Assembly: GCA_965549635.1 (NCBI GenBank)
Contig: CBEVHI010000001.1
Location: 1-46,201 of the forward strand
DNA: 46,201 nucleotides
Source: an uncultured bacterium
Lineage (GTDB): Bacteria > Actinomycetota > Acidimicrobiia > Spongiisociales > UBA4744
Direction of reading: 5' to 3'
The notes beneath the pieces are model-generated. The model searched no databases. It was not told where the DNA came from and saw nothing but the letters and a program-made list of their open reading frames with translations. A program made the position numbers and the translations under genes. Positions 26,862-44,268 of the stretch are shown here, piece by piece; positions within the stretch are counted from its first letter, which is position 1, and each line of letters opens with the position of its first letter.

Positions 26862-26962
26862 CGCTCTCCTATTCCCGGTTCCGGCCAGACTACGCCGGTA
26901 CGATACGAATGTGGAAAACCACGCTGTCGGTCAAGCCCCAACACGATAGGAACGACCACGCC

Positions 26963-28321: not shown

Positions 28322-28328
28322 CGCTCCG

Positions 28329-30539: not shown

Positions 30540-30976
30540 TGCGTCCCCATCACGGCCCTGATGATGGACCCATAGCCGGTGCATCGACAGAGGTTGCCCG
30601 CGAGCGCCTCACGGACGTCCGCCTCGCTCGGGTGGGGATTGTGTTCGAGCAGGTTCGCCGCCGACATCACGATCCCCGGAGTGCAGTACCCACACTGTGC
30701 TCCACCGGTCTCCAGCAATGCCTCCTGAACGGGGTGCAACGTGCCTTCGGAGGTGATCCCTTCAATCGTGACGATCTCGGACCCGGCAGCATCGGCGGCC
30801 ATCACGAGACACGAGCACACCGTCACACCGTCCATGAGGACGGTGCACGATCCACACTCACCCTGCTCGCAGGCGTCTTTTGCTCCATACAGCCCGAGTT
30901 CGTCGCGCAGGAGACGCAGCAGACTCTCCGTACCGGCGGCCTCCACCGTGACCGTCTCGCCGTTGATCCGGAGCAT
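30536..30976 (-). CDS. (2Fe-2S)-binding small subunit of the molybdenum hydroxylase
   Basis: MLRINGE...C.QGECGSCTV....V.SC and the second cluster CGYCTPG....C.C.GY. Start re-set to ATG 30976, which forms an ATGA overlap with the FAD subunit stop. The track N-terminus is an Arg-rich artefact. Confidence 0.92.
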   Translation of the reverse strand: MLRINGETVTVEAAGTESLLRLLRDELGLYGAKDACEQGECGSCTVLMDGVTVCSCLVMAADAAGSEIVTIEGITSEGTLHPVQEALLETGGAQCGYCTPGIVMSAANLLEHNPHPSEADVREALAGNLCRCTGYGSIIRAVMGTQ

Positions 30977-31776: not shown

Positions 31777-31809
31777 CCCAGGTCCCTTTCGATCTACCCT
31801 GCAGGCTAC

Positions 31810-32478
31810 ATGAATATCGACGAGACCCTCGGCAGCTGTGAACTCGAACTGGCGGCAGATCGCGGCCCCAACTTGAGAGCGCTCGGGTTCTGGCGTGCCG
31901 TCGCCGAAGTCAAGCGTCGACCCGAGCTCGCGGCGACCTATGCGGACCGCATTGCGGAGATCGACCGTGCCGCGTTTGCACGCTGGGCGCTCGTCACCGT
32001 CCCGCTCGGCCTCGGCACGACACTGATGATCTTGGGTACCGTGCTCGGTCTTGCGGTCACCTCTGCCGGGTACTTCCTCGACTCCCCTTGGAACGGGCTG
32101 GCGATCCTGATCGGGACGGGCATCCTGCTGGTCCCCACCCACGGGTTGGGCCACCTGATCGTCGGCCGTCTCCTCGGCATCGGCTTCACCGGCTGGTTCA
32201 TCGGCACATGGAAGATGCCCCAACCGGGCGTCAAACTGGACTACCGCTCCTACCTGCGCGCCTCTCCCCGGGCTCGAGCATGGATGCATGCTTCGGGGGC
32301 GATCGTCACCAAACTCATCCCCTTCCTGAACCTGGGTGCGGCCTGGGGTGCCGGCGTTCCAGGGTGGACCATGTGGACGCTCGTGATCCTGGGGGTCGTG
32401 ATGATCTTGACCGACGTTCTGTGGTCGACGAAAGCGTCGGACTGGAAGAAGTTCCGCAGAGAACTCCGCTACGTCTGA
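31810..32478 (+). CDS. hypothetical polytopic membrane protein with an HGLGH motif
   Basis: About 222 aa from ATG 31810. It has several clear hydrophobic helices and natural-looking composition. It is divergent from the hydroxylase operon. The minus-strand 679-aa ORF covering it is Arg/Pro/Gly-rich junk in this stretch. Confidence 0.55.
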   Translation: MNIDETLGSCELELAADRGPNLRALGFWRAVAEVKRRPELAATYADRIAEIDRAAFARWALVTVPLGLGTTLMILGTVLGLAVTSAGYFLDSPWNGLAILIGTGILLVPTHGLGHLIVGRLLGIGFTGWFIGTWKMPQPGVKLDYRSYLRASPRARAWMHASGAIVTKLIPFLNLGAAWGAGVPGWTMWTLVILGVVMILTDVLWSTKASDWKKFRRELRYV

Positions 32479-33464
32479 AGCACCGCGGCGCCGTGCACCC
32501 TGCCGTCTTTGAGATCGACGAGCGCCTGGTTCGCTTCGGCGAGCGGGTACACCTGAATCTGGGTGCGGATCGGTATCTCGGCGGCCAGCCTGAGGAACGC
32601 TCGAGCATCGTCTCTGGTGAAGTTGGCGACGCTGCGAATCTGCCGCTCCAACCAGAGATCGTCGTAGCTGAAGGCGGGCATCTGGTCGAGGTGAATGGCG
32701 TTGATCGCCACGACCCCGCCGCGGTCCAGTGACTTCAAAGCCTCGACGACGACCTGCCCGACCGGGGCAAACGTAACCGCAGCATCCAGAGGTACCGGAG
32801 GTCTCTCCTCGTAGGGACCGGCCCAGACGGCACCAAGTTCCATTGCCCGCCGGCGCTCGATCTGCGATCGAGTCGCAACATAGACGTCGCATCCCCAGTA
32901 CAGGGCGACTTGCAACGCCAACAGGGCCGATGCCCCGAACCCATAGAGTCCAAGTCGGCCCCCCGGCTGAATGCCACTCACCTTCAAGGCGCGGTAGCCG
33001 ATCACACCGCCACACAAGAGCGGCGCGACTTCGAGATCGTCCATGCTGTCGGGCAACGCGAAGGCAAGATCACCGTCGACCACCACACGTTCTGCGTACC
33101 CACCATCCCGGTCCCATCCGGTGAAGATCGCCTCCTCGCACAGGTTCTCCCTTCCGGTGGTACAGAAGCGACAACTGCCGCAGAACCCTCCAAGCCATCC
33201 GACCCCGACACGCTCGCCGGGTGCCCACCCACGGACACCCTCCCCAACTCGGAGCACTCTTCCGACAATCTGATGTCCGGGGATCATCGGAAGCTTGTCC
33301 ATCCCGAGGTCTCCCTCGACCTCCTGCAGATCGGTTCGGCAGACGCCGCAGGCGGCAACCTCCAAGAGCAGCTCTCCCTCGCCAGGAGAGGGGTCGGCGA
33401 CCTCTTGCAACGTCAGCGGCCCCGTGTCGACCGCCGCAGGATCGTGCAGCATCTGTGCGCGCAT
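32469..33464 (-). CDS. zinc-dependent alcohol dehydrogenase family oxidoreductase
   Basis: Contains GVCRTDLQ, GHQIVG and the structural-zinc motif C..C..C......C (GSCRFCTTGRENLC), plus a Rossmann G.GA.A loop. Start chosen at ATG 33464 (MRAQMLHDP). Confidence 0.85.
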   Translation of the reverse strand: MRAQMLHDPAAVDTGPLTLQEVADPSPGEGELLLEVAACGVCRTDLQEVEGDLGMDKLPMIPGHQIVGRVLRVGEGVRGWAPGERVGVGWLGGFCGSCRFCTTGRENLCEEAIFTGWDRDGGYAERVVVDGDLAFALPDSMDDLEVAPLLCGGVIGYRALKVSGIQPGGRLGLYGFGASALLALQVALYWGCDVYVATRSQIERRRAMELGAVWAGPYEERPPVPLDAAVTFAPVGQVVVEALKSLDRGGVVAINAIHLDQMPAFSYDDLWLERQIRSVANFTRDDARAFLRLAAEIPIRTQIQVYPLAEANQALVDLKDGRVHGAAVLQT

Positions 33465-33515
33465 ATCGTCACGAAGGCTACCTGCCAAGGCTGCTTCCGA
33501 ACGGCGTCGACCGAC

Positions 33516-34988
33516 TCAGCCCAGCTTGGCCAGAAGCCCCGTCTTCTCGTTGAACGCCTCGATGCGGCGATCCATCTCCCCGACCTCACTCTGGATCGAC
33601 GTCCAGTAGTCGTCCTCATACCACTGCGCCTGGATCTCCTCGTAGGTCTTCCCCTGCTGTTCGACCCAGGTGTAGTACTTGAGGTTGTGGATCCGCTTGC
33701 GTCCCCAATAGTCGAGCTCGACCATCGCGTCCGTGGTCGTCCCCATCAGGTAACGCTCGTAGGCGGTCACGGCGTCATCACGCGTGAACTCACCTCGCTC
33801 CTCGTTGAGCTCGGTCAACCTCGACTGGTACATCTCGACGGAGTCGGTGGCGACGGTCATGACGACGTCATGGCCGTCCATTTCGTTCCACTTGGCGAAC
33901 TTGATCGATGACAGCATGTTGGCGATGCTCGAGATCCCCAACAGTGGCAGCTGCTCGACGAATGCCTCCGGCACGCCTCGCTCGACCAGGTAGTCCTGGC
34001 CGACCGGCTCGTTGAAGAGGCGCAGGAGCTGCATCGTCGCCTCGTCGTCGATGGCGGTGACGAAGTCGGTGTTCTTGGCGTTGTGAATCCACGGCACGTG
34101 CTTGTCGCCGATTCCTTCGATGCGATGTGCACCGAATCCGTTGTCGAGCAACGTGGGACATTGCAGCGCTTCACTGGCAACGATCTTGGACGTCGGATAG
34201 TGCTGCTTCATGTAGTCGCCCGATCCGATGGTTCCCGCGGATCCGGTGGTCAGCGCCACGCCTCGATACCGATCACCGGCGTCCATCACCTGCTCGAGAA
34301 CCTCGACCATGGCCGGGCCGGTGATGGTGTAGTGCCAGAGGTAGTTTCCGAACTCGTCGAACTGGTTGAAGATCACGACGTCTTCTCCGGAAGCCTTCAA
34401 CTCCCAGGTCTTGTCGAAGATCTCCTTGACGTTGCTCTCGGTTCCCGGCGTCGCGATCACTTCCCCGGCGACCGTCGCCAGCCACTCGAAGCGTTCCTTG
34501 CTCATCCCCTCCGGCAGGATCGCCACCGAGTCGCACGCAAGCAGATGCGAGTCGTAGGCCCCGCCTCTGCAGTAGTTCCCCGTGGATGGCCAGACGGCTT
34601 TCTGGCTTGTCGGGTCGAACTGGCCGGTCACGAGCCGTGGCACCAGGCAGCCAAACGCAGCTCCGACCTTGTGCGCACCGGTCGGAAACCACTTGCCGAC
34701 CAGCGAGACGACACGCGCTTGGGTTCCGGTGAGCTCCTTCGGATACTCGATGAAGTTGACCCCTCCGAAACCGCCACCGGTGGAGACCGGTTCGTTCTTC
34801 CATGTGATCCTGAACAGGTTGATCGGGTCGAGATCCCAGAGGCCCACACCCTGCAACCTCTGCTTCACCGCGGCCGGAATCAGACGCGGGTCGCGCTGCT
34901 GTGCGAACGTCGGGATGAGGATGCTGCGCTCGATGGCGCGCTGTACGGCCCGCTCCAGCGGACCTTCGTGGACGGTGAGGTCGATCAT
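33516..34988 (-). CDS. fold-type II (CysK/CBS/TrpB-like) PLP-dependent enzyme with N- and C-terminal extensions; specificity unknown
   Basis: About 490 aa. A candidate PLP lysine sits in PTGAHKVGAA, a phosphate loop in TTGSAGTIGSG, and HRIEGIGDKHVP matches the CysK/CBS (I/V)EGIG motif. ATG 34988 is preceded by GGAGAAGGAA. Confidence 0.7.
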   Translation of the reverse strand: MIDLTVHEGPLERAVQRAIERSILIPTFAQQRDPRLIPAAVKQRLQGVGLWDLDPINLFRITWKNEPVSTGGGFGGVNFIEYPKELTGTQARVVSLVGKWFPTGAHKVGAAFGCLVPRLVTGQFDPTSQKAVWPSTGNYCRGGAYDSHLLACDSVAILPEGMSKERFEWLATVAGEVIATPGTESNVKEIFDKTWELKASGEDVVIFNQFDEFGNYLWHYTITGPAMVEVLEQVMDAGDRYRGVALTTGSAGTIGSGDYMKQHYPTSKIVASEALQCPTLLDNGFGAHRIEGIGDKHVPWIHNAKNTDFVTAIDDEATMQLLRLFNEPVGQDYLVERGVPEAFVEQLPLLGISSIANMLSSIKFAKWNEMDGHDVVMTVATDSVEMYQSRLTELNEERGEFTRDDAVTAYERYLMGTTTDAMVELDYWGRKRIHNLKYYTWVEQQGKTYEEIQAQWYEDDYWTSIQSEVGEMDRRIEAFNEKTGLLAKLG

Positions 34989-35004
34989 TTCCTTCTCCAA
35001 TCAA

Positions 35005-35046
35005 TGCGTGCTTCGTACTTCGTACTTTGTACCTCGTACTTCGTAT
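35005..35046 (-). repeat. five perfect-phase plus one degenerate tandem heptad (GTACGAA type) in the ThrC-like/CysK-like intercistronic region; candidate cis-regulatory element
   Basis: Plus strand reads TGCGTGC TTCGTAC TTCGTAC TTTGTAC CTCGTAC TTCGTAT. The mRNA strand reads AUACGAA GUACGAG GUACAAA GUACGAA GUACGAA GCACGCA. The array ends about 17 nt before the RBS/ATG at 34988. Confidence 0.7.
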
Positions 35047-35066
35047 GGCGATAGCGCCAAGCCGGC

Positions 35067-36299
35067 TCACGGGGCTTCCATCACCGCCTGTACGGCTTCC
35101 AAGGTGGGGGGGATCTCGTACGGAGCGCTGCCTGCGCTGCCCGCTGCTCTCACCGCGGACGCAATGTCCTTCAGACCGCTTCCGGTATTGAGCACGACGA
35201 CCCTGTCATCGGCGGTGAGGAGGCCGAGGTTTTGCGCCTTGATCATGCCTGCGTACGCCGCGGCGCCCGCAGGTTCACCGAACACTCCGGCGGCCCTCGC
35301 CATCGCCGGAATCGCGGCCAGAATCTCTTCGTCTTCGACGGTCACGTAGGCACCGTCCGTCTCGATGACCGCGGCCATGGCCTTGATCCGGTCTCTCGGC
35401 AGGCCGGCGGATATGGAGTCGGCCACGGTCTGCGCCTCGATCGCAGGCTTGGTCAGCACATCCTCACCGGACTCCCAGGCCTGGGCCATGTAGCTGCTGC
35501 CCGTAGCCTGGACGCCGATCAGCCTCGGCATGCGGTCGATCCACCCCAATGCGAGCAGATCCTTGAAGCCTTTGTGGAGTCCGCCGATGATGCAACCGTC
35601 TCCGACGCTCACCAGCACGACACTCGGAACTTCCCAGCCGAGCTGTTCGGCGATCTCGTAGGCCGCCGTCTTCTTGCCTTCGCTCATATAGGGGTTGTAG
35701 GCCGTGTTGCGGTTGTACCAGCCGTACTCGTCTGCGACCTGCAAACACAGCTCGAACGCATCGTCATACGAGCCCTGCACAGTAAACACGGTGGAGCCGA
35801 AGACCAGGAGTTGGGCGATCTTGGCTTCAGGAGCAGAGCGCGGAACGAAGATCACATTCTGGAGACCTACCGAAGCCGACAGCCCACTCAGCGCCGCAGC
35901 GGCATTCCCTGTGGACGCGGTGGTGACAACCTCTGCCCCCTTCTCGCGGGCCTTGACGATGGCAATCGCGCTCGCCCGGTCCTTGAACGACGCCGTCGGT
36001 TCCCTTCCGCCGTCCTTGACCCACAGCCGGGCCAGCCCCGTTGCCTGGATCTCGTACATTGGCGTCCAGCCCACTTTCAGCGGAGGAACGGCCGCGTCGG
36101 CTTCAATCGGCAGAAGCGGCCGGTACCTCCACATGGACCAGTCCGCGCCGAGGTCACCCCTGCCGACACGGATCGCGTCGTAGTCGTAGAGCACATCCAG
36201 GATGCCTTCGTTGCCATGGTCGGGACAGACGTACTCGACCTCGTCGGGCGCGTAGACCTTTCCGCAGATCATGCAGCGCAGACCCGTGACGTGGCTCAT
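35067..36299 (-). CDS. threonine synthase-like PLP-dependent enzyme with an N-terminal zinc ribbon
   Basis: About 410 aa from ATG 36299, which forms an ATGA overlap with the carbamate kinase stop. It has a CMICG...CPDHG ribbon, the PLP lysine motif PTASFKDR and a GNAAAA loop. The layout matches short ThrC enzymes. Confidence 0.85.
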   Translation of the reverse strand: MSHVTGLRCMICGKVYAPDEVEYVCPDHGNEGILDVLYDYDAIRVGRGDLGADWSMWRYRPLLPIEADAAVPPLKVGWTPMYEIQATGLARLWVKDGGREPTASFKDRASAIAIVKAREKGAEVVTTASTGNAAAALSGLSASVGLQNVIFVPRSAPEAKIAQLLVFGSTVFTVQGSYDDAFELCLQVADEYGWYNRNTAYNPYMSEGKKTAAYEIAEQLGWEVPSVVLVSVGDGCIIGGLHKGFKDLLALGWIDRMPRLIGVQATGSSYMAQAWESGEDVLTKPAIEAQTVADSISAGLPRDRIKAMAAVIETDGAYVTVEDEEILAAIPAMARAAGVFGEPAGAAAYAGMIKAQNLGLLTADDRVVVLNTGSGLKDIASAVRAAGSAGSAPYEIPPTLEAVQAVMEAP

Positions 36300-37282
36300 C
36301 GCACGATCCGGGTCCCGGTCTCTCCGGCCACACCGCGTTCGATGTTCTCGGGGTTGGTGATCAGCACTTCCTTGCCACCGGCTTCGAGGTAGGTGATCGC
36401 AGCTTCGATCTTCGGAGCCATGCTGCCCTTGGCAAAGTGGGTACCTTCGGCCAGGTAGCTCTTTGCCTCCTCGAGCGTCAGCCGATCCACCCAGCGTTGC
36501 TCCGGCGTTCCCCAACCGAGCGCCACCTTCTCGACGGCGGTGCTGATCAGGAGCAGGTCGGCATCGAGTTCACCGGCGAGCAAGGCGGAGGCACGATCCT
36601 TGTCGATCACTGCGGGGACACCTCGGAGAGCACCGCTCTCGTCGGCAACCACGGGGATGCCTCCCCCGCCTACGCAGATCACGGCCATACCTTTTGCGAG
36701 CAGATCGCGAATCGCCTCGATTTCCACGATACGTTTGGGCATCGGGGATGCAACGACCCTTCGCCATCCGCGACCGGCGTCTTCCACCACGTTCCAACCG
36801 TCGACCGCGCGCCGCTGTGCGGCTTCTTCGGGCTCCATGAACGATCCGATCGGCTTCGTCGGATGCTCGAAGGCCGGATCGTCGACGGCGACCTCGACCT
36901 GGGTCACGACCGTCGTCACCGTCTTGTCGATGCCGAGACTCAGAAAGTCGTTGTACAGGTTCTGCTGGAGTGCGTACCCGATCGCTCCCTGCGTGTCGGC
37001 ACCACAAGCGTCGAGGGGGACCTCGTGCAGTTCGTGCCTTGCCAGCTCAGAGCGCCGGAGAATGAACCCGACCTGCGGCCCGTTCCCATGGGTGATCGCG
37101 ACATCCCATCCGGCGAGAATGAGTTCGGCGATGTGCTGATCGGTCTCGCCCGCCGCTGCATACTGATCTTGCACCGAGCGGTGCTCGGCATCCTTGATCA
37201 GTGAGTTTCCCCCGATGGCCACGACGGCCAATGGACGTTTGGTGCTGCTCAACGAATCTCGCTTTCTCGGTGCCTGGGGCAC
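36296..37282 (-). CDS. arcC: carbamate kinase
   Basis: 328 aa. Motifs VVAIGGNSL and ITHGNGPQVG and the amino-acid-kinase fold continue to the C-terminal GT.I. GTG start. A slightly shorter N-terminus is possible. Confidence 0.92.
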   Translation of the reverse strand: MPQAPRKRDSLSSTKRPLAVVAIGGNSLIKDAEHRSVQDQYAAAGETDQHIAELILAGWDVAITHGNGPQVGFILRRSELARHELHEVPLDACGADTQGAIGYALQQNLYNDFLSLGIDKTVTTVVTQVEVAVDDPAFEHPTKPIGSFMEPEEAAQRRAVDGWNVVEDAGRGWRRVVASPMPKRIVEIEAIRDLLAKGMAVICVGGGGIPVVADESGALRGVPAVIDKDRASALLAGELDADLLLISTAVEKVALGWGTPEQRWVDRLTLEEAKSYLAEGTHFAKGSMAPKIEAAITYLEAGGKEVLITNPENIERGVAGETGTRIVR

Positions 37283-37288
37283 CGGTTC

Positions 37289-38263
37289 CTACATGGTCAG
37301 GGCCATCACGGCTTTCTGTGCGTGGAGTCGGTTCTCGGCCTGGTCGAAGACGACACTGTGCGGACCATCCACGACGGCGTCGGTGACTTCGACGTTGCGG
37401 TCGGCTGGGAGGGGATGCATGTAGATGGCGTCTTCTGCTGCCAGAGCCATGCGCCGTTCGTCGGTAATCCAATCGGTGTACTTGGAACCGATCTCAGCCG
37501 ACTCCGCTTCGTCGGTCGTCGTCAGCATCGCTCCCCAGCTCTTGGCATACACCACATCGGCGTCGCGGAAGCCGTCATCGAAGTTCTCGAGGATCTCGAA
37601 CGAGCCGTTCGATCTGCGGGCGTTTTCCTCCGCCTGCGCGACGATGTCCGGCATCAGTTTGAACTCGGGGGGGCGGGTGAGGCGAACGTTCATGCCGAAT
37701 CGTGTTGCCAGCAGAATCAAGCTCTGTGGCACGCTCAATGGCTTCTGGTAGCTCGACGCATACGCATAGCTCACGTTGAGCGTGCGACCGCGAGGATCGC
37801 CCTTCTTCTCGATGATCGTCATCATGTCGGCGAGGATCTGATGGGGGTGGTACATCTCGCATTGCATATTCAGCACGGGCACCCTGCTCGCCTCGGCGAC
37901 CGCTCGCTGGTAGGCGTTGCCGACACCCCAGTCGACCTGTCGGATCGCTATGCCGGCGCTGTAGCGGCCGAGGATCTCGCCGATCTCCGTTGCCGTGTCG
38001 CCGTGGCTGATCTGCGTCGTGCGGGACTCCATGAACATCGCATGTCCGCCCAGCTGGGCCATGCCGGCCTCGAAGCTCGCCCTCGTTCGAGTGCTGGAGA
38101 AGAAGAACAGCATCGCCAGCACTTTGTCCCTCAGGTAGGCGTGCGGTTCGCCCAGAGCCTGCTTGCGCTTGAGGTCGAGAGCGACACTCAACACGGTATC
38201 GATCTCTTCCTTGGTCCATTCCTGGGTCGTGATCATGTCCCGACCCTTCAATCCGGTCTGCAT
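37289..38263 (-). CDS. ornithine-carbamoyltransferase-fold enzyme of the acetylornithine-CTase/YgeW-like (non-canonical) type
   Basis: 324 aa. It carries the carbamoyl-phosphate motifs SSTRTR, HPHQ and HPLPA. The ornithine-binding D..(x)SMG motif is replaced by DVVYAKSWGAM. Confidence 0.85.
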   Translation of the reverse strand: MQTGLKGRDMITTQEWTKEEIDTVLSVALDLKRKQALGEPHAYLRDKVLAMLFFFSSTRTRASFEAGMAQLGGHAMFMESRTTQISHGDTATEIGEILGRYSAGIAIRQVDWGVGNAYQRAVAEASRVPVLNMQCEMYHPHQILADMMTIIEKKGDPRGRTLNVSYAYASSYQKPLSVPQSLILLATRFGMNVRLTRPPEFKLMPDIVAQAEENARRSNGSFEILENFDDGFRDADVVYAKSWGAMLTTTDEAESAEIGSKYTDWITDERRMALAAEDAIYMHPLPADRNVEVTDAVVDGPHSVVFDQAENRLHAQKAVMALTM

Positions 38264-38312
38264 GCTTGTGCTCCAGTCCTCTCGAGCTGAGTTTCTCTCA
38301 GTCTTTGATCCT

Positions 38313-38392
38313 CGTACCTGGTACCTCGTACGCGACCATCGTCGCCATCGACCGCGGGGCGGGCCGCACCGAGATACCAGGCACCAGGTACG
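38313..38392 (-). promoter_or_regulatory. structured 5' leader: two GUAC-heptad triplets forming a 19-bp imperfect inverted repeat around a 42-nt GC-rich insert
   Basis: The arms at 38313-38331 (CGTACCTGGTACCTCGTAC) and 38374-38392 (ATACCAGGCACCAGGTACG) pair over 19 positions on the minus-strand RNA: 16 Watson-Crick pairs, two G-U pairs and one mismatch. The insert holds the hairpin GCGAC-CATC-GTCGC (38332-38345). A further hairpin, CTGAG-TTTCT-CTCAG, lies at 38287-38301. Confidence 0.6.
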
Positions 38393-38400
38393 TCTTCTTC

Positions 38401-39354
38401 CTACTCCATCGCGCCCAGTACGAGCGAGAGCAGAGCCATGCGCATGACGACCCCGTTGTACGCCTCCTGCCAGTAGCGGGCGTGCTTCGTCGCATCCACA
38501 TCGGGCGGGAGCTCATCCATGCGTGGCAACGAGTGCAGAATGATGGCATCCGACTTCGCCTTGTCCGCAAGCAGCGCTCTGGTGACTTTGTAGTTGTCCG
38601 GCGTCTGACCGGTCTCGCCTGCTCGCTCGTCGCGGCCCTTGGTGTAGTCGGCCTGAACCACCGGCTCCATGTAGATCACGTCGGCTTCACCGATGACATC
38701 GCTGATGTGCTCGGCGGTCCTCACGAAGAGGTTCTGTTCGGCGAGTTCGGCCTTGAAGTCGTCGGTGAGTGACATCTCCGGCGGGGCGACGGAGATCATC
38801 TGGGCGTCGAACTGCGTCAGCGCGTAGCCGAGCGAGTGCATGGTGCGCATGCGCATGTCGCCGATCGCCACGAAGGTCAGGCCGTCGATCGTCCCCACTT
38901 CGGTCAGCACCGTGTAGAGGTCGGTGAGGATCTGCGTCGGGTGCTCGCCCCATCCGTCACCCGCGTTGATGACCGGCACACTGGACCACTTCGCGGCCTC
39001 GTGCGGTGCGCCCTGCTGGAAGTGACGCATGACGATCGCATCGCCGTAGTACTCCAGCATGTGCACGGTGTCCTTGATCGACTCCTGGTAGAAGTCGCCG
39101 GCGCGCGTCATCTTGGCATCCGAGAAGCCCAGCACGTGACCACCGAGACGATGCATCGCAGCCTCGTGGGCCATCCGGGTGCGTGTCGACGGCTGGTAGA
39201 AGGCGGTCAGCAGCGTCTTGTCGGCCAGCAGGTCCGTATTGCGCCGTTCCCGAGCGATCGGTTCCAGTTCGGAAGCCGTCTCGAACACATGCTCGAACTC
39301 GGCCCTCTCAAACCCTTTGAGGGACAGAATGTCCCGCCCGGCGAAACTTCTCAT
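38401..39354 (-). CDS. aspartate-carbamoyltransferase-fold paralog (catalytic-chain-like); second substrate uncertain
   Basis: About 317 aa from ATG 39354, with AAGGAG 6 nt upstream. It carries PSTRTR, MRH, HPTQ and HSLPR and is collinear with class B PyrB. No pyrimidine-pathway neighbours are present. Confidence 0.82.
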   Translation of the reverse strand: MRSFAGRDILSLKGFERAEFEHVFETASELEPIARERRNTDLLADKTLLTAFYQPSTRTRMAHEAAMHRLGGHVLGFSDAKMTRAGDFYQESIKDTVHMLEYYGDAIVMRHFQQGAPHEAAKWSSVPVINAGDGWGEHPTQILTDLYTVLTEVGTIDGLTFVAIGDMRMRTMHSLGYALTQFDAQMISVAPPEMSLTDDFKAELAEQNLFVRTAEHISDVIGEADVIYMEPVVQADYTKGRDERAGETGQTPDNYKVTRALLADKAKSDAIILHSLPRMDELPPDVDATKHARYWQEAYNGVVMRMALLSLVLGAME

Positions 39355-39512
39355 GCGCTTCTCCTTCTCCTCGAAGCCGCGCCTCGACCCGAGACGCAGG
39401 TGTGCAGATCGACCCAAGCCTATCTTCTTTTGACCTCCACTGAACCGCGACCGACGACTGGTGTGGCCATCGACCACAAGACCCGCCTCAGGCCGGGTAG
39501 GCTGACCCGAGC

Positions 39513-40682
39513 GTGGCGAGCGAAAGCACATCAACAGGAGCGGCCAGAGGCTTTCGCGCAGTCGCCGGGTCTCTCTTTCCGATCCTCGCCGTTGTCGCCG
39601 CCCTGCTCCTCGGAGCAGTGATGCTCCTGATCCTCGGTGCCAACCCGGTGACCGGCTTCGGCGCGATGATCGATGGAGCGTTCGGAAGTCTGCGCGCCCT
39701 CTCCGACACGGCAGCGAAGGCCGTTCCGCTGCTCCTCGTCGGCGTCGGAATCACGATCGCCTTCCGAGCGAACGTGATCAACATCGGCGGTGAGGGACAG
39801 ATCATCCTCGGCGCACTGTTCGGAACAGCACTCGCCTTGTTGATGCCCAACCTCCCGGCGTGGCTGCTTCTGCCCGGCGTGCTCTTCGCCGGTTTCGTCG
39901 GAGGCGCCCTGTGGGGGGCGATTCCCGGAGCCTTGAAGGCGTACTTCAACGTCAACGAGATTCTGAGCACGATCATGCTCAACATCGTCGCCGTTCAAGG
40001 CATGAACTTCCTTCTCCGCGGGCCGATGATGGACCCTGCAGAGATCGAGGCCGGCAGCCGCATCCCTCAGACCACCAGACTCGCGGAGGCAGCCGACCTG
40101 CCGGTCCTCATCAAGGGCACGCGACTGAACGGCGGAGTGATCATCGCGGTCGTCGCTGCCGTCGTCGTCTACTTCTTCCTCTGGCGGATGACCTCGGGTT
40201 TCCGGATTCGCGCCGTTGGGTTCAATCCCCACGCCTCCCGCTACGCGGGCATTCACGTGCAACGATCGGTCGTCCTCGCCCTCACCCTCAGCGGGGCGCT
40301 GTGCGGCCTCGCCGGCGTGGTTCTGGTCTTCGGCAGCGAGTCTCACCGGTTCGTCACCGATGGGTCCTCGACAGGGTTCACCGGCAGTGCCGGGTTCAAC
40401 GGCATCGTCGCCGCGCTCTTCGGCGGCCTCCATCCCCTCGGAACGATCCCTGCGTCGTTCCTCTTCGGGGCGCTGCTGGTCGGGGCGAACAAACTGCAGC
40501 GCGCCGTGCAAGTCCCTGCAGCCCTCATCATTGCGTTGAACGGGCTTGTCGTCGTGTTCGTCGTCAGTAGCGCCATCTGGAAGCGGCGCCTCGATCAACG
40601 GTTCCTCTTGAGGGCCGCGACCGCCGACCAGGTCGAAGCCGATGAGGAGGCCACGCAGTCAGGAGCCCCTCCCGATGGGTGA
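39513..40682 (+). CDS. ABC transporter permease (BMP/nucleoside-type, YufP/NupB-like)
   Basis: 389 aa and polytopic. The N-terminal pattern ..ILAVVAALLLGAVMLLILGANP and a central INIGGEGQ motif are typical of the branched sugar/nucleoside permease family. GTG start. Confidence 0.85.
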   Translation: MASESTSTGAARGFRAVAGSLFPILAVVAALLLGAVMLLILGANPVTGFGAMIDGAFGSLRALSDTAAKAVPLLLVGVGITIAFRANVINIGGEGQIILGALFGTALALLMPNLPAWLLLPGVLFAGFVGGALWGAIPGALKAYFNVNEILSTIMLNIVAVQGMNFLLRGPMMDPAEIEAGSRIPQTTRLAEAADLPVLIKGTRLNGGVIIAVVAAVVVYFFLWRMTSGFRIRAVGFNPHASRYAGIHVQRSVVLALTLSGALCGLAGVVLVFGSESHRFVTDGSSTGFTGSAGFNGIVAALFGGLHPLGTIPASFLFGALLVGANKLQRAVQVPAALIIALNGLVVVFVVSSAIWKRRLDQRFLLRAATADQVEADEEATQSGAPPDG

Positions 40683-41607
40683 GTTCTTCACCGCGGCGGT
40701 GCTGGTCTCGACGATCAGTTCCGGAATCCGGCTTGCCACGTCCTACCTCTACGCGGCGATTGGCGAGACGTTCGGGCAACGCAGCGGCGTGCTCAACCTG
40801 GGCGTCGACGGCATCATGCTCCTGGGCGCGTTTGGCGCCTACTACACGGTCCTCAAGACGGGCAATCTGTGGCTCGCTTTGGTGGTTGCGGCCGGTATCG
40901 GACTCATCATGGGACTTGCCATGGCGTTCGCCAGCGTCACTCTGCAGGCCGAGCAGGGGATCAGCGGGATCGGCTTCTACTTGTTTGGCCTCGGCATGAG
41001 CGATCTCCTCTTCCAGAAGCTCGTCGGGACGCCGCTTCCCATTCAAGGCTTCCCTGCCATCCACCTTCCGGTGCTGAGTGACATTCCCGTCGTCGGGGAT
41101 CTGCTCTTCTCCCACAGCCTGATGGTGTATGGAGCGTTCCTGCTCGTTCCGGCAGCTGCCTTCGTTCTCAACAAGACCACCATTGGCCTGAAGATACGAT
41201 CCGTCGGAGAGAATCCCGAGGCGGTCGACACCCTCGGCGTCTCGGTGGCAAAGGTCCGCTACGCGACGGTCATGTTCGGCAGCATGCTGGCCGGAATCGG
41301 AGGGGCAGCACTGGCCACAGAACTCGGGATCTTCCAGCAGAACCTGACGGCCGGACAGGGTTTCATCGCCGTCGCCCTCGTCTACTTCGGCGCATGGCGC
41401 CCCCTCGGCGTGATGCTCGGCGCACTGTTGTACGGATTCGTCGCAGCCATCGTCCTGCAGCTCAAGACGCTTGACGTCATCCCCCGCAGCGCATCGGACC
41501 TTGCGGCAATGCTCCCCGCCCTCATCACGATTCTTGCCCTCGTCGTTGCCGTCCAGAGAGATCGGCAACCGGCAGCACTGACCAAGCCCTATCAAAGAGG
41601 GGAATGA
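40675..41607 (+). CDS. ABC transporter permease (second subunit, YufQ/NupC-like)
   Basis: About 310 aa. N-terminus LATSYLYAAIGETFGQRSGVLNLGVDG is typical. Start set to ATG 40675, overlapping the upstream stop by 8 nt. Confidence 0.85.
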   Translation: MGEFFTAAVLVSTISSGIRLATSYLYAAIGETFGQRSGVLNLGVDGIMLLGAFGAYYTVLKTGNLWLALVVAAGIGLIMGLAMAFASVTLQAEQGISGIGFYLFGLGMSDLLFQKLVGTPLPIQGFPAIHLPVLSDIPVVGDLLFSHSLMVYGAFLLVPAAAFVLNKTTIGLKIRSVGENPEAVDTLGVSVAKVRYATVMFGSMLAGIGGAALATELGIFQQNLTAGQGFIAVALVYFGAWRPLGVMLGALLYGFVAAIVLQLKTLDVIPRSASDLAAMLPALITILALVVAVQRDRQPAALTKPYQRGE

Positions 41608-41630
41608 CCAGACAGAAAGGAAGACACCCA

Positions 41631-42665
41631 ATGCGGAAACTATTGATTATCGGCGTGCTCGTGCTTGCACTCATCGCCACGGCTTGTTCGAGCGGAACGA
41701 CAGAGACCACTGCCGCCCCGGCAACAACTGCGGCGGCCGCCACGACCGCCGCGCCTGCGGAGCCATTCAAGGTTGCGCTGATCGCACCGAGCGCCATCAA
41801 CGATCTGGCGTTCACGCAGAGCATGAACGACGCACTCACCAAGATCCAGAGCGACATGGGCGGCGAATCGGCAATGGAGATTGCGGTCACCGATGGAACG
41901 TTCGTCGTCGAGGACGCCGCCGCGGCGATCCGTGACTACGCCAACGATGGCTACGACCTCGTGATCGCCCACGGTTCGCAGTACGGAGGCTCTCTGAAGG
42001 AGATCGCGCCGGACTTTCCCGACACGTCCTTCGCGTGGGGGACGGCAGGAGACACGTTCGGCCTGCCGAACGTCTTCGCCTATGAGGCCGCATCCGAAGA
42101 AGGCGGCTACGTCATGGGTGTGATGGCAGCTGCCCTGTCCGAATCGGGCGTGCTCGGTGTCGTTGGGCCGATCGAGGTCGGCGATGCCAAACGCTATGTG
42201 GATGGATTCGCGGCGGGAGCGGTCGCCCAGGATGCCGCGGCCGACGTGAAGATCAACTACACGGGGTCCTTCAGCGACGTGGCACTCGCAGCCGAGGCGG
42301 CACGAGCAGAGATCGGCGCAGGTGCCGATGTCCTCACCGGGACCGCGCAGATGGTCGTCGGAGCGGTTGGCGTCGCCAAAGATGACGGTGTGCTGTGGTT
42401 CGGAACCCAGGCAGACCAGACGCAGCTCGCTCCGGACATCGTCGTCGCTTCGCAGGTGTACCACTGGGAGGTCGTCATCCAGGAGATCATCGACCTGATG
42501 GACCAGGGGACGATGGGCGGCAAGTCGTTCTCCGTGGATCTCGCCAACGGTGGTGAGGTCGTCGCCTTCAACCCCGGATTTGACCTGCCTGCTGACGTGA
42601 AGCAACTCGCCGAGGACACGATCGCGGGTATCTCGGACGGATCGATCAACCCGCCACGACCGTAG
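41631..42665 (+). CDS. BMP-family (PnrA/Med-like) ABC substrate-binding lipoprotein
   Basis: Signal peptide with lipobox (LIATAC), an Ala/Thr-rich linker, then FKVALI.PS.INDL.F of basic-membrane-protein-type purine/nucleoside binders. AAAGGAAG RBS precedes ATG 41631. Confidence 0.88.
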   Translation: MRKLLIIGVLVLALIATACSSGTTETTAAPATTAAAATTAAPAEPFKVALIAPSAINDLAFTQSMNDALTKIQSDMGGESAMEIAVTDGTFVVEDAAAAIRDYANDGYDLVIAHGSQYGGSLKEIAPDFPDTSFAWGTAGDTFGLPNVFAYEAASEEGGYVMGVMAAALSESGVLGVVGPIEVGDAKRYVDGFAAGAVAQDAAADVKINYTGSFSDVALAAEAARAEIGAGADVLTGTAQMVVGAVGVAKDDGVLWFGTQADQTQLAPDIVVASQVYHWEVVIQEIIDLMDQGTMGGKSFSVDLANGGEVVAFNPGFDLPADVKQLAEDTIAGISDGSINPPRP

Positions 42666-42678
42666 GGAGAGAACAGGC

Positions 42679-44268
42679 ATGGCACCTCGGGGAACTGATC
42701 CCGGATCACCAACCGCTGCAACAGGGCAGACCGGTATCGATCTGGAGATGCGCGGCATCGTCAAGCAGTTCCCCGGGGTGCTCGCCAGTGATCACGTCGA
42801 CTTCGACGTTCGCAGAGGCGAGATCCACACCCTGCTCGGAGAGAACGGCGCCGGGAAGTCGACGCTGATGAAGATTCTCTACGGGCTCCATCAACCAGAT
42901 GAGGGTCAGATCGTGATCGATGGAGAACCGGTCACGATCCACTCCCCCGCCGACGCCATAGCTCACGGCATCGGGATGATCCACCAGCACTTCATGCTGG
43001 TCGAGACGATCACCGTCGCAGAGAATGTGGCGCTCGGTCTCCCATCGTCGCGGGGGATGCTGATGGATCTCGAGGTGGTGTCGGAGCGCATCCATGAGCT
43101 TTCGGAGACCTACGGCATCAAGGTCGACCCGAGTGCGTATGTCTGGCAGCTGTCCGTCGGCGAACAGCAGCGGGTCGAGATCATCAAGGCCCTCTATCGC
43201 AACGCGGCCCTGCTTGCACTCGACGAACCGACCGCGGTGCTGACCCCCCAGGAAGTCGACGACCTCTTCGTCACCCTTCGAGCCATGGCCGCCGACGGCC
43301 ACCCGCTCATCTTCATCTCCCACAAACTGCACGAGGTGCTCGACATCAGCGATCGCATCACCGTGCTGCGGAATGGACGAAAGATGGGGACCGTACCTGC
43401 GCAAGGAGCCACCAGGGCCAGCCTCGCTCGGATGATGGTGGGGCGCGAGGTGGTCCTCGAACGCGACCGCAAACCCGCCACCATCGGCGCTCCTCGCCTC
43501 GAGGTCAGGGAACTCAAGGCGCTGAACGACCGGGGGCTCGAAGCACTCCGGGGGATCGATCTGGAGGTCCGCTCGGGAGAGATCCTGGCGATCGCCGGAG
43601 TCTCAGGAAACGGTCAGCGGGAACTGGCACAGGTGATCGCCGGTCTCAGGCCCCCCACAGAGGGAAGTGTCCTGTTGGACGGTACCGACGTCAGTCGCTG
43701 GGAACCGCGAAAGCGCCGCGACGCCGGCCTCGCCTACATACCGGAGAAGCGGATGCGTGACGCAGCCATCCAGCAGTTCACCGTCGCAGAGAATCTCATG
43801 CTGCACGACTACGACAGACCCCCTTTCGCGCGAGCAGGGTTTCTCGACTTCGGGCAGATCGAACGACACTGCGAGCAACTGATCGAAGATTTCCGTGTGA
43901 AGACGCCAACTCAGGCGACCCCCCTGCGAGCGCTGTCCGGCGGCAACATCCAGAAGATGGTCCTGGCCAGAGAACTGTCGGGAAACCCGAAGGTGCTGAT
44001 TGCGGCCCAACCGACACGGGGGGTGGACATCGGCGCCACCGAATACATCCACCAACGCCTTCTCGACCAGCGTTTCATTCACGAGAAGCTCCTGAGCCAG
44101 CGAAAAGCAGGAACGGCGACACTGCTCATCTCTGAGGATCTCGACGAAATCCTGGCCCTCGCCGATCGGATCGCCGTGATCTACGAGGGGACGATCATGG
44201 GCATCCTCGATCGCGACGACGCCACGGTGGAGCAGCTCGGTTTGATGATGGCCGGCGTCACCGAATAG
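42679..44268 (+). CDS. ABC transporter ATP-binding protein with duplicated ATPase domains
   Basis: 529 aa. Domain 1 has Walker A GENGAGKST, signature LSVGEQQR and Walker B LLALDEPT. A second, degenerate domain has GVSGNGQ, LSGGNIQK and LLISEDLDE. Confidence 0.92.
   Translation: MAPRGTDPGSPTAATGQTGIDLEMRGIVKQFPGVLASDHVDFDVRRGEIHTLLGENGAGKSTLMKILYGLHQPDEGQIVIDGEPVTIHSPADAIAHGIGMIHQHFMLVETITVAENVALGLPSSRGMLMDLEVVSERIHELSETYGIKVDPSAYVWQLSVGEQQRVEIIKALYRNAALLALDEPTAVLTPQEVDDLFVTLRAMAADGHPLIFISHKLHEVLDISDRITVLRNGRKMGTVPAQGATRASLARMMVGREVVLERDRKPATIGAPRLEVRELKALNDRGLEALRGIDLEVRSGEILAIAGVSGNGQRELAQVIAGLRPPTEGSVLLDGTDVSRWEPRKRRDAGLAYIPEKRMRDAAIQQFTVAENLMLHDYDRPPFARAGFLDFGQIERHCEQLIEDFRVKTPTQATPLRALSGGNIQKMVLARELSGNPKVLIAAQPTRGVDIGATEYIHQRLLDQRFIHEKLLSQRKAGTATLLISEDLDEILALADRIAVIYEGTIMGILDRDDATVEQLGLMMAGVTE

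What the first reader, a model, noticed from the sequence alone, without database searches (positions are those of the whole stretch)
38304..38392. Operon leader with two GUAC-heptad triplets that are also mutually complementary (19-bp helix): possible protein- or ligand-controlled RNA switch
Seen directly, in the 137-nt gap upstream of the OTCase-fold gene. The mRNA strand reads GUACCUG GUGCCUG GUAUCUC (distal set) and GUACGAG GUACCAG GUACGAG, followed by a degenerate GAUCAAA (proximal set). Each triplet has exact 7-nt phasing. The two sets can pair with each other over 19 positions: 16 Watson-Crick pairs, two G-U pairs and one G-G mismatch. They enclose a 42-nt GC-rich insert that has its own hairpin. 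Established knowledge: regularly spaced short triplets bound by ring-shaped RNA-binding proteins control alternative helices in known attenuation systems. Examples are HutP, which binds UAG repeats with 4-nt spacers, and TRAP, which binds GAG/UAG repeats. Inference: a factor binding one heptad set would prevent the long helix, or the reverse. That would couple expression of the carbamoyltransferase/carbamate-kinase genes to a signal. No obvious cognate binding protein is encoded in the window.
Basis: partly seen in the sequence, partly recalled or inferred. Interest (0 to 1): 0.7.

Follow-up and report, generated by a model that had tools for sequence, protein, structure and literature searches.

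The report
Seven-base repeat hairpin between operon genes
The "GUAC heptads" are real, but they are a local example of the fast-evolving seven-base tandem repeats found between genes in many bacteria, here arranged as two opposed arrays that fold into a hairpin between two genes of one operon, and not a conserved ligand- or protein-sensing switch.

Summary
Observation confirmed. On the minus (mRNA) strand, 38371-38391 reads GUACCUG GUGCCUG GUAUCUC and 38311-38331 reads GUACGAG GUACCAG GUACGAG. The arms pair over 19 positions: 16 Watson-Crick, 2 G-U, 1 G-G. The fold z-score is -5.

Interpretation only partly holds. The site is an intercistronic spacer between an ATCase-like and an OTCase-like gene, not the operon leader. 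The conserved promoter-like element lies upstream of the ATCase-like gene.

A second array of the same unit (six copies, 35005-35046, unstructured) precedes the ribosome-binding site of another cistron.

- In relatives (91-96% identical OTCase), the same gap always holds heptad arrays, but unit sequence, copy number (2-7) and layout differ (GUACGAR, GACUGAA, UGACUGG).
- In more distant orthologues the gap is only about 10 nt, or carries unrelated heptads or plain hairpins.
- Period 7 dominates the tandem repeats in 880 kb of related loci.
- GTAC heptad arrays occur in unrelated gene contexts in metagenomes.

This is therefore a heptanucleotide simple-sequence repeat of the cyanobacterial STRR type, a known class of unknown function.

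New here: within the clade the two arms co-vary. Five of seven heptad positions show compensatory changes, and G-C and U-A are invariant at positions 1-2. Arm mismatches are G-U on the sense strand (25 versus 1 A-C). This favours a cis-acting mRNA hairpin whose length is tuned by repeat number. No binding protein, terminator or riboswitch signature was found.

The parts
38371..38391 (-). Distal (5') heptad array, three units starting with GU: GUACCUG GUGCCUG GUAUCUC. It begins 9 nt after the stop codon of the ATCase-like gene.
   Evidence: The GU dinucleotide is invariant at 7-nt phasing in alignment A1.
38332..38370 (-). 39-nt GC-rich central insert (the loop of the long hairpin) with its own small stems. 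It is partly homologous to the inserts of L218, L085 and L211, and is absent in L081-L084.
38311..38331 (-). Proximal (3') heptad array, three units with AC at positions 3-4: GUACGAG GUACCAG GUACGAG.
38297..38310 (-). Two degenerate in-phase units, GAUCAAA and GACUGAG. The second resembles the GACUGAA unit of sister lineages.
38310..38388 (-). Long imperfect hairpin in the polycistronic mRNA: an 18-bp outer helix with one G-G mismatch, continued by 7 further pairs into the insert.
   Evidence: sense -50.7 versus antisense -37.9 kcal/mol
38264..38400 (-). 137-nt intercistronic spacer between the ATCase-like and OTCase-like genes.
38271..38279 (-). Shine-Dalgarno region GGACUGGAG of the OTCase-like gene (ATG 38263-38261). 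It is not sequestered by the hairpin.
35005..35046 (-). Second array of the same unit, six copies in sense orientation: AUACGAA GUACGAG GUACAAA GUACGAA GUACGAA GCACGCA. It has no complementary partner, is predicted unstructured, and ends 6 nt before the SD GGAGAAGG (34998-34991) of the second PLP-enzyme gene (ATG 34988).
   Evidence: (z +0.6)
38401..39354 (-). ATCase-like carbamoyltransferase gene, first gene of the operon.
37289..38263 (-). OTCase-like carbamoyltransferase gene, downstream of the hairpin.
33516..37282 (-). Rest of the operon: carbamate kinase (36296-37282), ThrC-like PLP enzyme (35067-36299), CysK-like PLP enzyme (33516-34988).
39379..39424 (-). Actual operon leader: conserved -10-like box GATAGGCTTGG (39424-39414) and a 5'-UTR stem-loop GCGUCUCGGGUCGAGGCGC (39397-39379).
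   Evidence: alignment A2 of 9 lineages

Best explanation
The element is a heptanucleotide simple-sequence repeat, of the kind known as cyanobacterial STRRs, Xanthomonas GGGAATC, Beggiatoaceae TAACTGA and H. influenzae ATCTTTC repeats. It sits in an intercistronic spacer of a catabolic operon in an uncultured Acidimicrobiia bacterium.

Shown:
- Two opposed arrays, 5' units of type GU-N5 and 3' units of type N5-AC, form a long periodic hairpin.
- The hairpin starts a few nucleotides after the upstream stop codon.
- A third array of the same unit, in sense orientation, lies single-stranded just ahead of another cistron's ribosome-binding site.
- The arrays gain and lose units, and unit sequences turn over, as expected for slippage-prone repeats.
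- The two arms change together, so the helix persists.

Inferred:
- The hairpin works in cis at the RNA level. It would set the relative expression of the cistrons on either side.
- Possible routes are a barrier or processing site (for example for RNase III or 3' exonucleases), and/or an effect on how ribosomes leaving the upstream stop codon reach the downstream start.
- Repeat-number changes would give a heritable way to tune stem length.
- It does not sense a ligand, and no dedicated binding protein is needed to explain the data.
For: Class membership:
- Period 7 accounts for 43 of 74 tandem repeats with at least 3.5 copies in 880 kb of orthologous loci plus the window. Many come as forward plus inverted-complement pairs.
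- A metagenome scan stopped at its 120-hit limit for GTAC-N3 arrays. The 80 loci examined span GC 33-71% and carry many spacer types.
- Published work describes heptamers as the most abundant long SSR class and notes inverted pairs (PMC4679880, PMC4692102).

Site persistence with turnover:
- All lineages with 91-96% identical OTCase carry heptads in this gap, but the units differ. GUACGAR occurs in the window, L081-84, L218 and L220. GACUGAA/GGUUCUC occurs in L001, L085, L211 and L215. UGACUGG/CCAGUGU occurs in L208, which also carries one UGUACGA unit as an intermediate.
- Copy number in the second gap is 2, 5 or 6.

Helix maintenance:
- In six lineages the heptad positions 1 and 2 are invariant G-C and U-A. 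Positions 3-7 show compensatory double changes.
- 97.4% of cells are paired. The covariation score is 0.779 against 0.276 in shuffles (0 of 500 reach it).

RNA level:
- The sense RNA is more stable than the antisense in 5 of 6 lineages (for example -51.8 versus -25.6 and -50.7 versus -37.9 kcal/mol).
- There are 25 G-U pairs against 1 A-C mismatch.

Operon context:
- The gap is only about 10 nt in L008, L009 and L012.
- The conserved promoter-like box lies upstream of the ATCase-like gene.
- No promoter or terminator consensus is found in the gap.

Precedent: the H. influenzae hmw1A 5'-UTR heptamer repeats form a long hairpin cut by RNase III, and expression scales with repeat number (PMC12721329).
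Against: - No expression data exist, so function is inferred from sequence alone.
- The hairpin is not universal even in the clade. L220 has one array with no complementary partner, and L081 has only an 11-bp stem.
- Across 38 orthologous leaders, mostly Chloroflexota, there is no general sense-strand stability bias (p = 0.79). The G-U asymmetry is partly tied to G+U-rich composition.
- The rows used for the covariation count were taken from predicted pairings, which biases the percentage paired.
- Arm co-evolution could come from template switching between the arms (palindrome homogenisation) without selection.
- Whether the unit is used genome-wide could not be checked, because only 46 kb of this genome is available.
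Confidence: 0.55

Rival explanations
1. The arrays are a neutral by-product of replication slippage and have no function. Heptamer arrays expand wherever non-coding spacers tolerate them. The inverted arrangement and arm complementarity are created and refreshed by intrastrand template switching, not by selection.
For: - Unit number and sequence turn over quickly.
- The element is absent from many orthologous operons, where the gap is about 10 nt.
- Such arrays occur in all sorts of contexts and taxa.
- The polymerase-slippage explanation for the heptamer excess is quoted in PMC4679880 and PMC4692102.
- Contigs often break at such arrays (L001, L019, L217).
Against: - An array has persisted at one gap through every sampled lineage of the clade despite complete unit turnover.
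- G-C and U-A are invariant at two of seven positions, while the other five co-vary.
- G-U pairs outnumber A-C mismatches 25 to 1 on the sense strand.
- The same unit is re-used at two separate gaps of one operon, and nowhere else in about 35 other intergenic regions of the window.
Confidence: 0.2
2. First reader's model. An oligomeric RNA-binding protein (HutP- or TRAP-like) reads one triplet or dinucleotide per heptad on the proximal array. It competes with helix formation and so couples expression of the downstream genes to a signal.
For: - AC is invariant every 7 nt on the sense strand in the proximal arrays of all lineages and in the second array. This gives NAC-N4 spacing like HutP's NAG-N4 (established knowledge of HutP).
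- The same unit precedes two cistrons of the operon.
- In the window, arrays are confined to this operon.
- Units tend to be re-used at different sites of the same locus: 22% of within-locus pairs versus 4.2% between loci.
Against: - No such protein gene is in the window, which is fully annotated.
- There is no terminator or anti-terminator to control.
- The unit count varies from 2 to 7.
- Unit sequences outside AC turn over between close relatives.
- GUACGAR arrays also lie next to glgC and DUF4159 genes.
- In the window the SD is about 30 nt from the stem and is not sequestered.
Confidence: 0.12
3. The element acts at the DNA level. The palindromes GTACCWGGTAC (38314-38324 perfect; 38381-38391 with one mismatch) are operators for a dimeric transcription factor acting on an internal promoter, or they form a cruciform or another protein-binding array.
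For: - GTACCWGGTAC with up to 2 mismatches gives 13 hits against 3.55 expected, clustered in the two gaps.
- GTACCTGGTAC or GTACCAGGTAC is also present in L081, L083 and L220.
- Three heptads equal two turns of B-DNA (arithmetic).
Against: - No promoter consensus is found in the gap. The L081 gap of 71 nt leaves no room for one.
- No regulator gene is nearby. The GntR/UTRA regulator seen in other Acidimicrobiia loci is absent.
- Sister lineages have no GTAC at all.
- Arm mismatches are G-U on the sense strand, which is irrelevant for duplex DNA.
Confidence: 0.05
4. The element is a REP- or MITE-like mobile palindromic element that inserted after the stop codon, and the heptad structure is incidental.
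For: - It is hairpin-forming, intergenic and starts just after a stop codon.
- Unit families look genome-specific.
- A similar GUACGAR/GUACYUC hairpin sits directly after a stop codon in an unrelated contig, L089.
Against: - There is no second copy of the whole element in the window.
- Arm length varies in whole 7-nt units.
- Single arrays without a partner exist (35005-35046; L220).
- No target duplications or transposase genes were seen.
Confidence: 0.08

Closest known systems
Heptanucleotide long simple-sequence repeats in bacterial intergenic regions. These include cyanobacterial STRR repeats, Xanthomonas GGGAATC and Nostoc GGGGAYT (PMC4692102), and the Mrazek 2007 survey as quoted in PMC4679880.
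   Same: - Tandem 7-nt units in non-coding spacers.
- Period 7 is over-represented relative to other periods.
- Arrays lie between the same genes in related genomes but vary in length and sequence.
- Inverted pairs can form stem-loops.
- Function is unknown.
   Different: - The host is an uncultured Acidimicrobiia, and related arrays occur in Chloroflexota; I found no description for these groups.
- The unit is GUACGAR, which is not G4-forming.
- Here the two arms can be shown to co-vary across lineages with two invariant positions.
- In the 46-kb window the arrays are confined to one operon.
TAACTGA direct repeats upstream of start codons in marine Beggiatoaceae, Cyanobacteria and Bacteroidetes (MacGregor 2015, PMC4679880).
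   Same: - Short sets (2-6 copies) of one heptamer lie immediately upstream of start codons on the sense strand.
- One unit family is used per genome.
- A post-transcriptional role is proposed.
- Sister lineages here use very similar units (GAACUGA, UAACCGA, UGACUGA, AGACUGA).
   Different: - In Beggiatoaceae almost all sets are direct repeats (one inverted set out of 170). Here the main element is an inverted pair forming a hairpin.
- The window's unit is GUACGAR.
- Canonical SD sequences are present here.
H. influenzae hmw1A 5'-UTR (ATCTTTC)n repeat hairpin processed by RNase III (PMC12721329).
   Same: - A heptameric SSR is transcribed into the mRNA.
- The repeats form one arm of a long hairpin.
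- This offers a mechanism by which repeat number tunes expression post-transcriptionally.
   Different: - That hairpin lies in the 5' UTR of a phase-variable adhesin gene, and its right arm is a non-repeat G-rich region. Here it lies between cistrons of a metabolic operon and both arms are repeat arrays.
- RNase III cleavage and dependence of expression on repeat number are untested here.
HutP (UAG-N4 x3, two sets) and TRAP (GAG/UAG repeats) attenuation systems.
   Same: - Two sets of three regularly spaced short motifs.
- The 7-nt period is identical to HutP sites.
- One set lies in an arm of a helix.
   Different: - No cognate protein gene and no terminator are present.
- The motif is NAC or GU, not NAG.
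- The two sets are complementary to each other rather than both being binding sites.
- Copy number and sequence vary between close relatives.
REP/BIME-type intercistronic palindromes that stabilise upstream mRNA (for example E. coli malE-malF; established knowledge).
   Same: - An imperfect palindrome lies just downstream of a stop codon inside an operon.
- The plausible role is differential mRNA stability.
   Different: - REPs are not built from tandem heptads.
- REPs are dispersed in hundreds of near-identical copies.
- REPs are linked to RAYT transposases. None of this could be checked or seen here.

Membership tests
Heptanucleotide simple-sequence repeats (LSSR/STRR type) | Head-to-tail tandem units of exactly 7 nt, at least 3 copies | tested here: met
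   TRF finds 38310-38331 (3.1 copies) and 35007-35045 (5.6 copies), both period 7. The pattern test gives 9 hits against 0.24 expected.
Heptanucleotide simple-sequence repeats (LSSR/STRR type) | Located in non-coding spacers | tested here: met
   Both arrays lie between called genes.
Heptanucleotide simple-sequence repeats (LSSR/STRR type) | Copy number and unit sequence vary between close relatives at the same locus | tested here: met
   Gap 2 has 2, 5 or 6 units. Gap 1 has GUACGAR, GACUGAA or UGACUGG units in lineages with 91-96% identical OTCase.
Heptanucleotide simple-sequence repeats (LSSR/STRR type) | Period 7 over-represented among tandem repeats of these genomes | tested here: met
   43 of 74 arrays with at least 3.5 copies have period 7. 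Periods 6 and 8 have 8 each.
Heptanucleotide simple-sequence repeats (LSSR/STRR type) | Many arrays of one unit family dispersed over the genome | not testable with these tools
   Only 46 kb of this genome is available, with two sites in one operon. Unit sharing within a locus is 22% against 4.2% between loci.
HutP/TRAP-type protein-mediated attenuation | Regularly spaced triplets (NAG-N4 x3 in two sets for HutP) | tested here: inconclusive
   The 7-nt spacing and two sets of three are present, but the conserved letters are AC (3' set) and GU (5' set), not NAG, and the sets are mutually complementary.
HutP/TRAP-type protein-mediated attenuation | Cognate RNA-binding protein gene (hutP, mtrB) in or near the operon | tested here: not met
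   Pfam/NCBIfam scans of essentially all window genes found none. The rest of the genome could not be tested.
HutP/TRAP-type protein-mediated attenuation | Intrinsic terminator whose formation the protein controls | tested here: not met
   No terminator-like site lies in or after the helix and there is no U tract.
HutP/TRAP-type protein-mediated attenuation | Number and sequence of repeats conserved among orthologous leaders | tested here: not met
   There are 2 to 7 units, different unit sequences, and no array in many orthologues.
Riboswitch / ligand-sensing leader | Conserved sequence-structure core across orthologous 5' UTRs; match to a curated RNA family | tested here: not met
   No Rfam match at gathering or E-value thresholds. 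Mean column identity is 48% even among close relatives. The site is intercistronic, not a 5' UTR.
hmw-type SSR hairpin processed by RNase III | Heptamer repeats form an arm of a long (at least about 20 bp) RNA hairpin within the transcript | tested here: met
   The predicted helix has 18 + 7 pairs. Transcription through the gap is inferred from the operon structure.
hmw-type SSR hairpin processed by RNase III | RNase III cleavage in the hairpin, and expression dependent on repeat number | not testable with these tools
   This needs RNA end-mapping and reporters.
REP/BIME elements | Dispersed high-copy palindromes with a conserved head, associated with a RAYT transposase | not testable with these tools
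   No second copy occurs in the window. The genome is not available.

The most novel reading that the evidence does not exclude
The heptad arrays could be binding platforms for an unidentified oligomeric RNA-binding protein. The protein would read one conserved dinucleotide (AC on the sense arrays) every seven nucleotides and compete with the self-complementary helix. This would be a HutP-like control logic acting on intercistronic spacers of catabolic operons. If general, it would explain why period 7, and one unit family per genome, dominate bacterial intergenic tandem repeats (STRR, TAACTGA, GGGAATC), an unexplained observation since 1990.
Probability: 0.1. Interest if true: 0.8.

Novelty: new member of a known kind. 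Interest (0 to 1): 0.38.

Why it matters
Heptameric tandem repeats are the most abundant class of long simple-sequence repeats in bacteria, yet their function is unknown outside one pathogen adhesin gene.

This locus offers a compact comparative series. The site is the same in every lineage. Unit turnover is complete. Two positions are invariant and the arms co-vary. The mismatches are strand-specific G-U pairs. Together these argue that at least some of these repeats are maintained as RNA hairpins inside operons.

The locus also gives clear constructs to test: arm mutants, compensatory mutants and unit-number variants.

For annotation, it warns against reading such periodic repeats as riboswitches or protein-binding attenuators on the basis of one genome. 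It also explains why contigs of these MAGs often break at such sites.

Tried and rejected
- **Rfam.** Gathering threshold on the whole window and E-value threshold on 34900-39700 found nothing relevant.
- **tRNA/tmRNA.** None found.
- **Promoter and terminator scan of 34800-39700.** No promoter was found and the only terminator-like site lies inside a gene. The scan uses E. coli-type consensus sequences, so this is weak evidence for an actinobacterium.
- **Conservation of GUAC heptads in 80 orthologous loci.** They are not conserved.
- **General sense-versus-antisense stability test on 38 orthologous leaders.** There is no overall bias (p = 0.79), so the RNA-strand argument holds only for the Acidimicrobiia clade.
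- **Search for a regulator.**
  - The conserved 224-aa ORF (31810-32472) is a membrane protein with no Pfam hit.
  - The GntR/UTRA regulator that precedes the OTCase gene in other Acidimicrobiia is absent from the window and from close relatives.
  - The rest of the window encodes housekeeping genes.
- **Purine-specific regulon idea.** GTACGAR arrays elsewhere flank glgC and VWA/DUF4159 genes.
- **A 28-codon GUG-initiated ORF through the insert.** It has no SD and is not conserved in relatives lacking the insert, so it was dismissed.
- **Not run.**
  - A search for HutP homologues: absence from the window is known, and presence elsewhere in the collection would not place the gene in this genome.
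  - Structure prediction, which is irrelevant here.
Full report
**1. What is there**

The window (63.7% GC) comes from an uncultured Acidimicrobiia-type bacterium. The downstream protein is 100% identical to one on a 50.8-kb metagenome contig. It is 91-96% identical to proteins of Acidimicrobiia and "Actinobacteria bacterium" MAGs.

On the minus strand lies an operon:
- ATCase-like carbamoyltransferase, 39354-38401
- a 137-nt gap
- OTCase-like carbamoyltransferase, 38263-37289
- carbamate kinase, 37282-36296
- ThrC-like PLP enzyme, 36299-35067
- a 78-nt gap
- CysK-like PLP enzyme, 34988-33516

The operon sits within a cluster of xanthine-dehydrogenase-family subunits, adenosine deaminase, amidohydrolases, a PreT-like flavoprotein and a BMP-type ABC transporter. 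The remaining roughly 20 kb encodes housekeeping genes such as RelA, SecDF, Tgt, QueA, RuvABC, PdxST, EF-G, citrate synthase and ThrRS.

**2.

The mRNA strand of the 137-nt gap reads as follows:
- GUACCUG GUGCCUG GUAUCUC at 38391-38371
- a 39-nt GC-rich insert at 38370-38332
- GUACGAG GUACCAG GUACGAG at 38331-38311
- degenerate GAUCAAA and GACUGAG

The 137-nt RNA folds at -61.6 kcal/mol with z = -5.0.

The pattern GTACN3GTACN3GTAC is about 40-fold above chance. Seven of its nine hits with up to 2 mismatches fall in two places. One is this gap. That array is AUACGAA GUACGAG GUACAAA GUACGAA GUACGAA GCACGCA at 35046-35005. It ends 6 nt before the SD of the CysK-like gene, has no complementary partner, and is predicted to be unstructured (z = +0.6).

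**3. It is not the operon leader**

- A box GATAGGCTTGG (39424-39414) is conserved in nine lineages upstream of the ATCase-like gene. I infer it to be a -10-like element of TAnnnT type. A 5'-UTR follows it (alignment A2).
- In other genomes the two carbamoyltransferase genes are separated by only 8-12 nt (L008, L009, L012 and others).
- In L081 the whole gap is 71 nt and is almost entirely filled by the heptads and the SD.
- No promoter or terminator consensus occurs in the gap.

The helix is therefore internal to a polycistronic mRNA.

**4. Comparative evidence**

Eighty orthologous loci from GTDB genomes were fetched, along with about 20 loci from close relatives.

The GUAC units are not conserved in orthologous leaders in general. 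Many leaders instead carry different heptad arrays, often with an inverted complement, directly before the SD:
- GACTGAA (L001)
- GGGGATT/CCCCAnn (L005)
- GAGATTA/AATCTCC (L007, L042)
- AAATCCA (L019)
- GAAACTT (L024)
- TTACGCA (L056)
- GGCTAAG (L068, L073)

A TRF census over 880 kb shows period 7 in 43 of 74 arrays with at least 3.5 copies. Periods 6 and 8 have 8 each.

It returned arrays from genomes of 33-71% GC with many spacer types. These included GUACGAR arrays next to a glgC gene and between VWA-like and DUF4159 genes.

This matches the published picture. Heptamers are the most abundant long simple-sequence repeats in bacteria. They lie in intergenic regions, vary between close relatives, sometimes occur as inverted pairs, and have unknown function (PMC4679880, PMC4692102).

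**5. Fine structure within the clade**

All lineages with 91-96% identical OTCase have heptad arrays in this gap:

| Lineage | Units in gap 1 |
|---|---|
| Window, and independent assembly L214 (identical) | GUACYUN x3 ... GUACSAG x3 |
| L218/L219 | Same layout as the window, degenerate units |
| L081-L084 | Compact GUACCUG GUACUUC GUACUUG GUACGAA GUACGAA; 11-bp stem, 3-nt loop |
| L220 | Single array GUACCAG GUACGAG GUACCAG GUACAAG GUGCAAA; no partner |
| L208 | UUGCCAG/UGUCCAG x5 ... UGACUGG x2, plus one UGUACGA unit |
| L210/L212 | Degenerate |
| L085-L087 | GGUUCUC-type ... GAACUGA UAACCGA UGACUGA |
| L211 and L215 | Like L085, with 6 and 5 proximal units respectively |

The second gap has 2 units (L081), 5 units (L083) or 6 units (window). 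In L085 and L211 it is missing because the genes overlap.

Alignment A1 shows GU invariant at 7-nt intervals in the 5' arrays. A unit-by-unit pair table and a formal count on 11 unit pairs (A3) give these results:
- Heptad positions 1 and 2 are invariant G-C and U-A.
- Positions 3-7 all show double-sided compensatory changes.
- 97.4% of cells are paired.
- The covariation score is 0.779 against 0.276 in shuffles (0 of 500 reach it).
- Slid registers give at most 55% paired.

Caveat: the rows were extracted from predicted pairings, and the lineages are related.

Sense RNA is more stable than antisense in 5 of 6 lineages (window -50.7 versus -37.9; L211 -51.8 versus -25.6). The stems hold 25 G-U pairs against one A-C mismatch. 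This asymmetry is not seen across all 38 orthologous leaders, which are mostly Chloroflexota.

Units are re-used at distant sites of the same locus more often than between loci, 22% against 4.2% of pairs.

**6. Explanation**

The best-supported reading is a heptanucleotide simple-sequence repeat element whose two opposed arrays form a cis-acting hairpin in the operon mRNA.

Shown:
- the repeat nature of the element
- its intercistronic position starting 3-9 nt after the stop codon in most lineages (0-17 overall)
- turnover by unit gain, loss and replacement
- co-variation of the arms
- the sense-strand G-U bias

Inferred:
- The hairpin modulates segmental mRNA stability or processing. An 18+7-bp helix is long enough for RNase III, and 3' hairpins protect upstream segments, as REP elements do (established knowledge).
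- It may also affect access of ribosomes to the downstream start.
- Unit indels provide tunable stem length.

The closest characterised precedent is the H. influenzae hmw1A 5'-UTR. There, (ATCTTTC)n forms one arm of a long hairpin cut by RNase III, and repeat number sets expression (PMC12721329).

**7. Rivals**

- **Neutral slippage by-product with template-switch homogenisation of the arms (0.2).** This fits the turnover and the patchy presence. It fits less well with site persistence, the two invariant positions and the G-U bias.
It gains some support from the invariant AC every 7 nt on all sense arrays and from the use of one unit before two cistrons. Against it are the absence of a binding-protein gene, the absence of a terminator, the variable unit number, and similar arrays in unrelated contexts.
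- **A DNA operator, GTACCWGGTAC palindromes (0.05).** There is no promoter, no regulator, and no conservation of the palindrome.
- **A REP/MITE-like insertion (0.08).** There are no dispersed copies in the available sequence.

**8. Verdict**

The specific interpretation as a ligand- or protein-controlled leader switch is not supported.

What remains is a new, well-resolved example of a known but functionally unexplained repeat class. It comes with comparative evidence that the hairpin is maintained at the RNA level. Novelty: new member of a known kind. Interest is moderate.

Noticed in passing
window 39379-39424 (minus strand): This is the true operon leader. The box GATAGGCTTGG, conserved in nine lineages, looks like an actinobacterial -10 element. 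It is followed, in the window, L081, L083, L210 and L208, by a conserved 5'-UTR stem-loop GCGUCUCGG(G)UCGAGRCGC. The stem-loop is absent in L085, L211 and L218.
   Followed up: partly
window 33516-39354 and 26909-33488; L081-L087: The gene cluster has conserved synteny in Acidimicrobiia. It comprises two carbamoyltransferase paralogues, carbamate kinase, two PLP enzymes, a Zn-ADH, a 224-aa membrane protein without a Pfam hit, XDH-family subunits, amidohydrolases and a PreT-like flavoprotein. It may be an uncharacterised purine- or pyrimidine-type catabolic pathway. The OTCase-like protein is about 80% identical between Acidimicrobiia, Chloroflexota and a few other phyla, which suggests horizontal transfer.
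   Followed up: partly
L007 5917-5985 and 10433-10504; L042 5966-5985 and 9443-9464; L048 8518; L062 12828; L068 2285; L077 3595 and 8495: The same heptad family, GGAGATT/AATCTCC, recurs at several intergenic sites and in several different Chloroflexota genomes. It contains an SD-like GGAG on one strand and an anti-SD-like CUCC on the other.
   Followed up: no
L056 5364-5945 and 8239-8437: A Chloroflexota contig has very long heptad arrays: CGGTAAA x15 facing GTTCACC x11. It also has a higher-order repeat of about 63 nt made of TTACGCA/TGCGTAA units, directly upstream of the OTCase gene.
   Followed up: no
L134 5030-5054 (metagenome contig JAEEGL010725982.1): Four GTACTTC units lie just after an ATG. 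Read in frame they encode the start of a signal-peptide-like sequence (MKTHSSFVLRTSYFVLPLALALALVSAPAG). This is a heptad array inside a coding region, where three units equal seven codons.
   Followed up: no
L001 1-32; L019 1-40; L217 1-43; L113 2-26: Several contigs begin or end exactly within a heptad array next to the OTCase gene. These repeats therefore appear to break metagenome assemblies.
   Followed up: no
L085 8185-8260, 15666-15684, 19951-19968: In a sister lineage, related heptads occur at 3' ends of genes, including between convergent genes: an AACAGCG/GCTGTCA pair, TCGGTTC and CAGTTGT. The AACAGCG array overlaps the last codons of the PreT-like gene as called.
   Followed up: partly
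window 38271-38279; L081 9296-9306 and homologues: The SD context (A/G)GACUGGAG is shared by the OTCase-like gene (window) and the second PLP-enzyme gene (relatives). It resembles the UGACUGG/GACUGAA heptad units. This suggests that the arrays arose by duplication of SD-proximal sequence.
   Followed up: no
window 39513-44268 (plus strand): The BMP-family ABC transporter is divergent from the operon and has an unusual gene order: permease, permease, binding protein, ATPase. It is present in the window, L210-L213 and L215-L220. In L081-L087 the amidohydrolase and PreT-like genes take its place.
   Followed up: no
L002 and L003, upstream of the OTCase gene (about 5900-6000): In Acidimicrobiia with 85% identical OTCase, the upstream gene is a GntR/UTRA regulator. 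The leader carries one or two copies of the palindrome CGGCGCAAGCYTGCTTGCGCCG instead of heptads. This may be an operator or an RNA hairpin.
   Followed up: no
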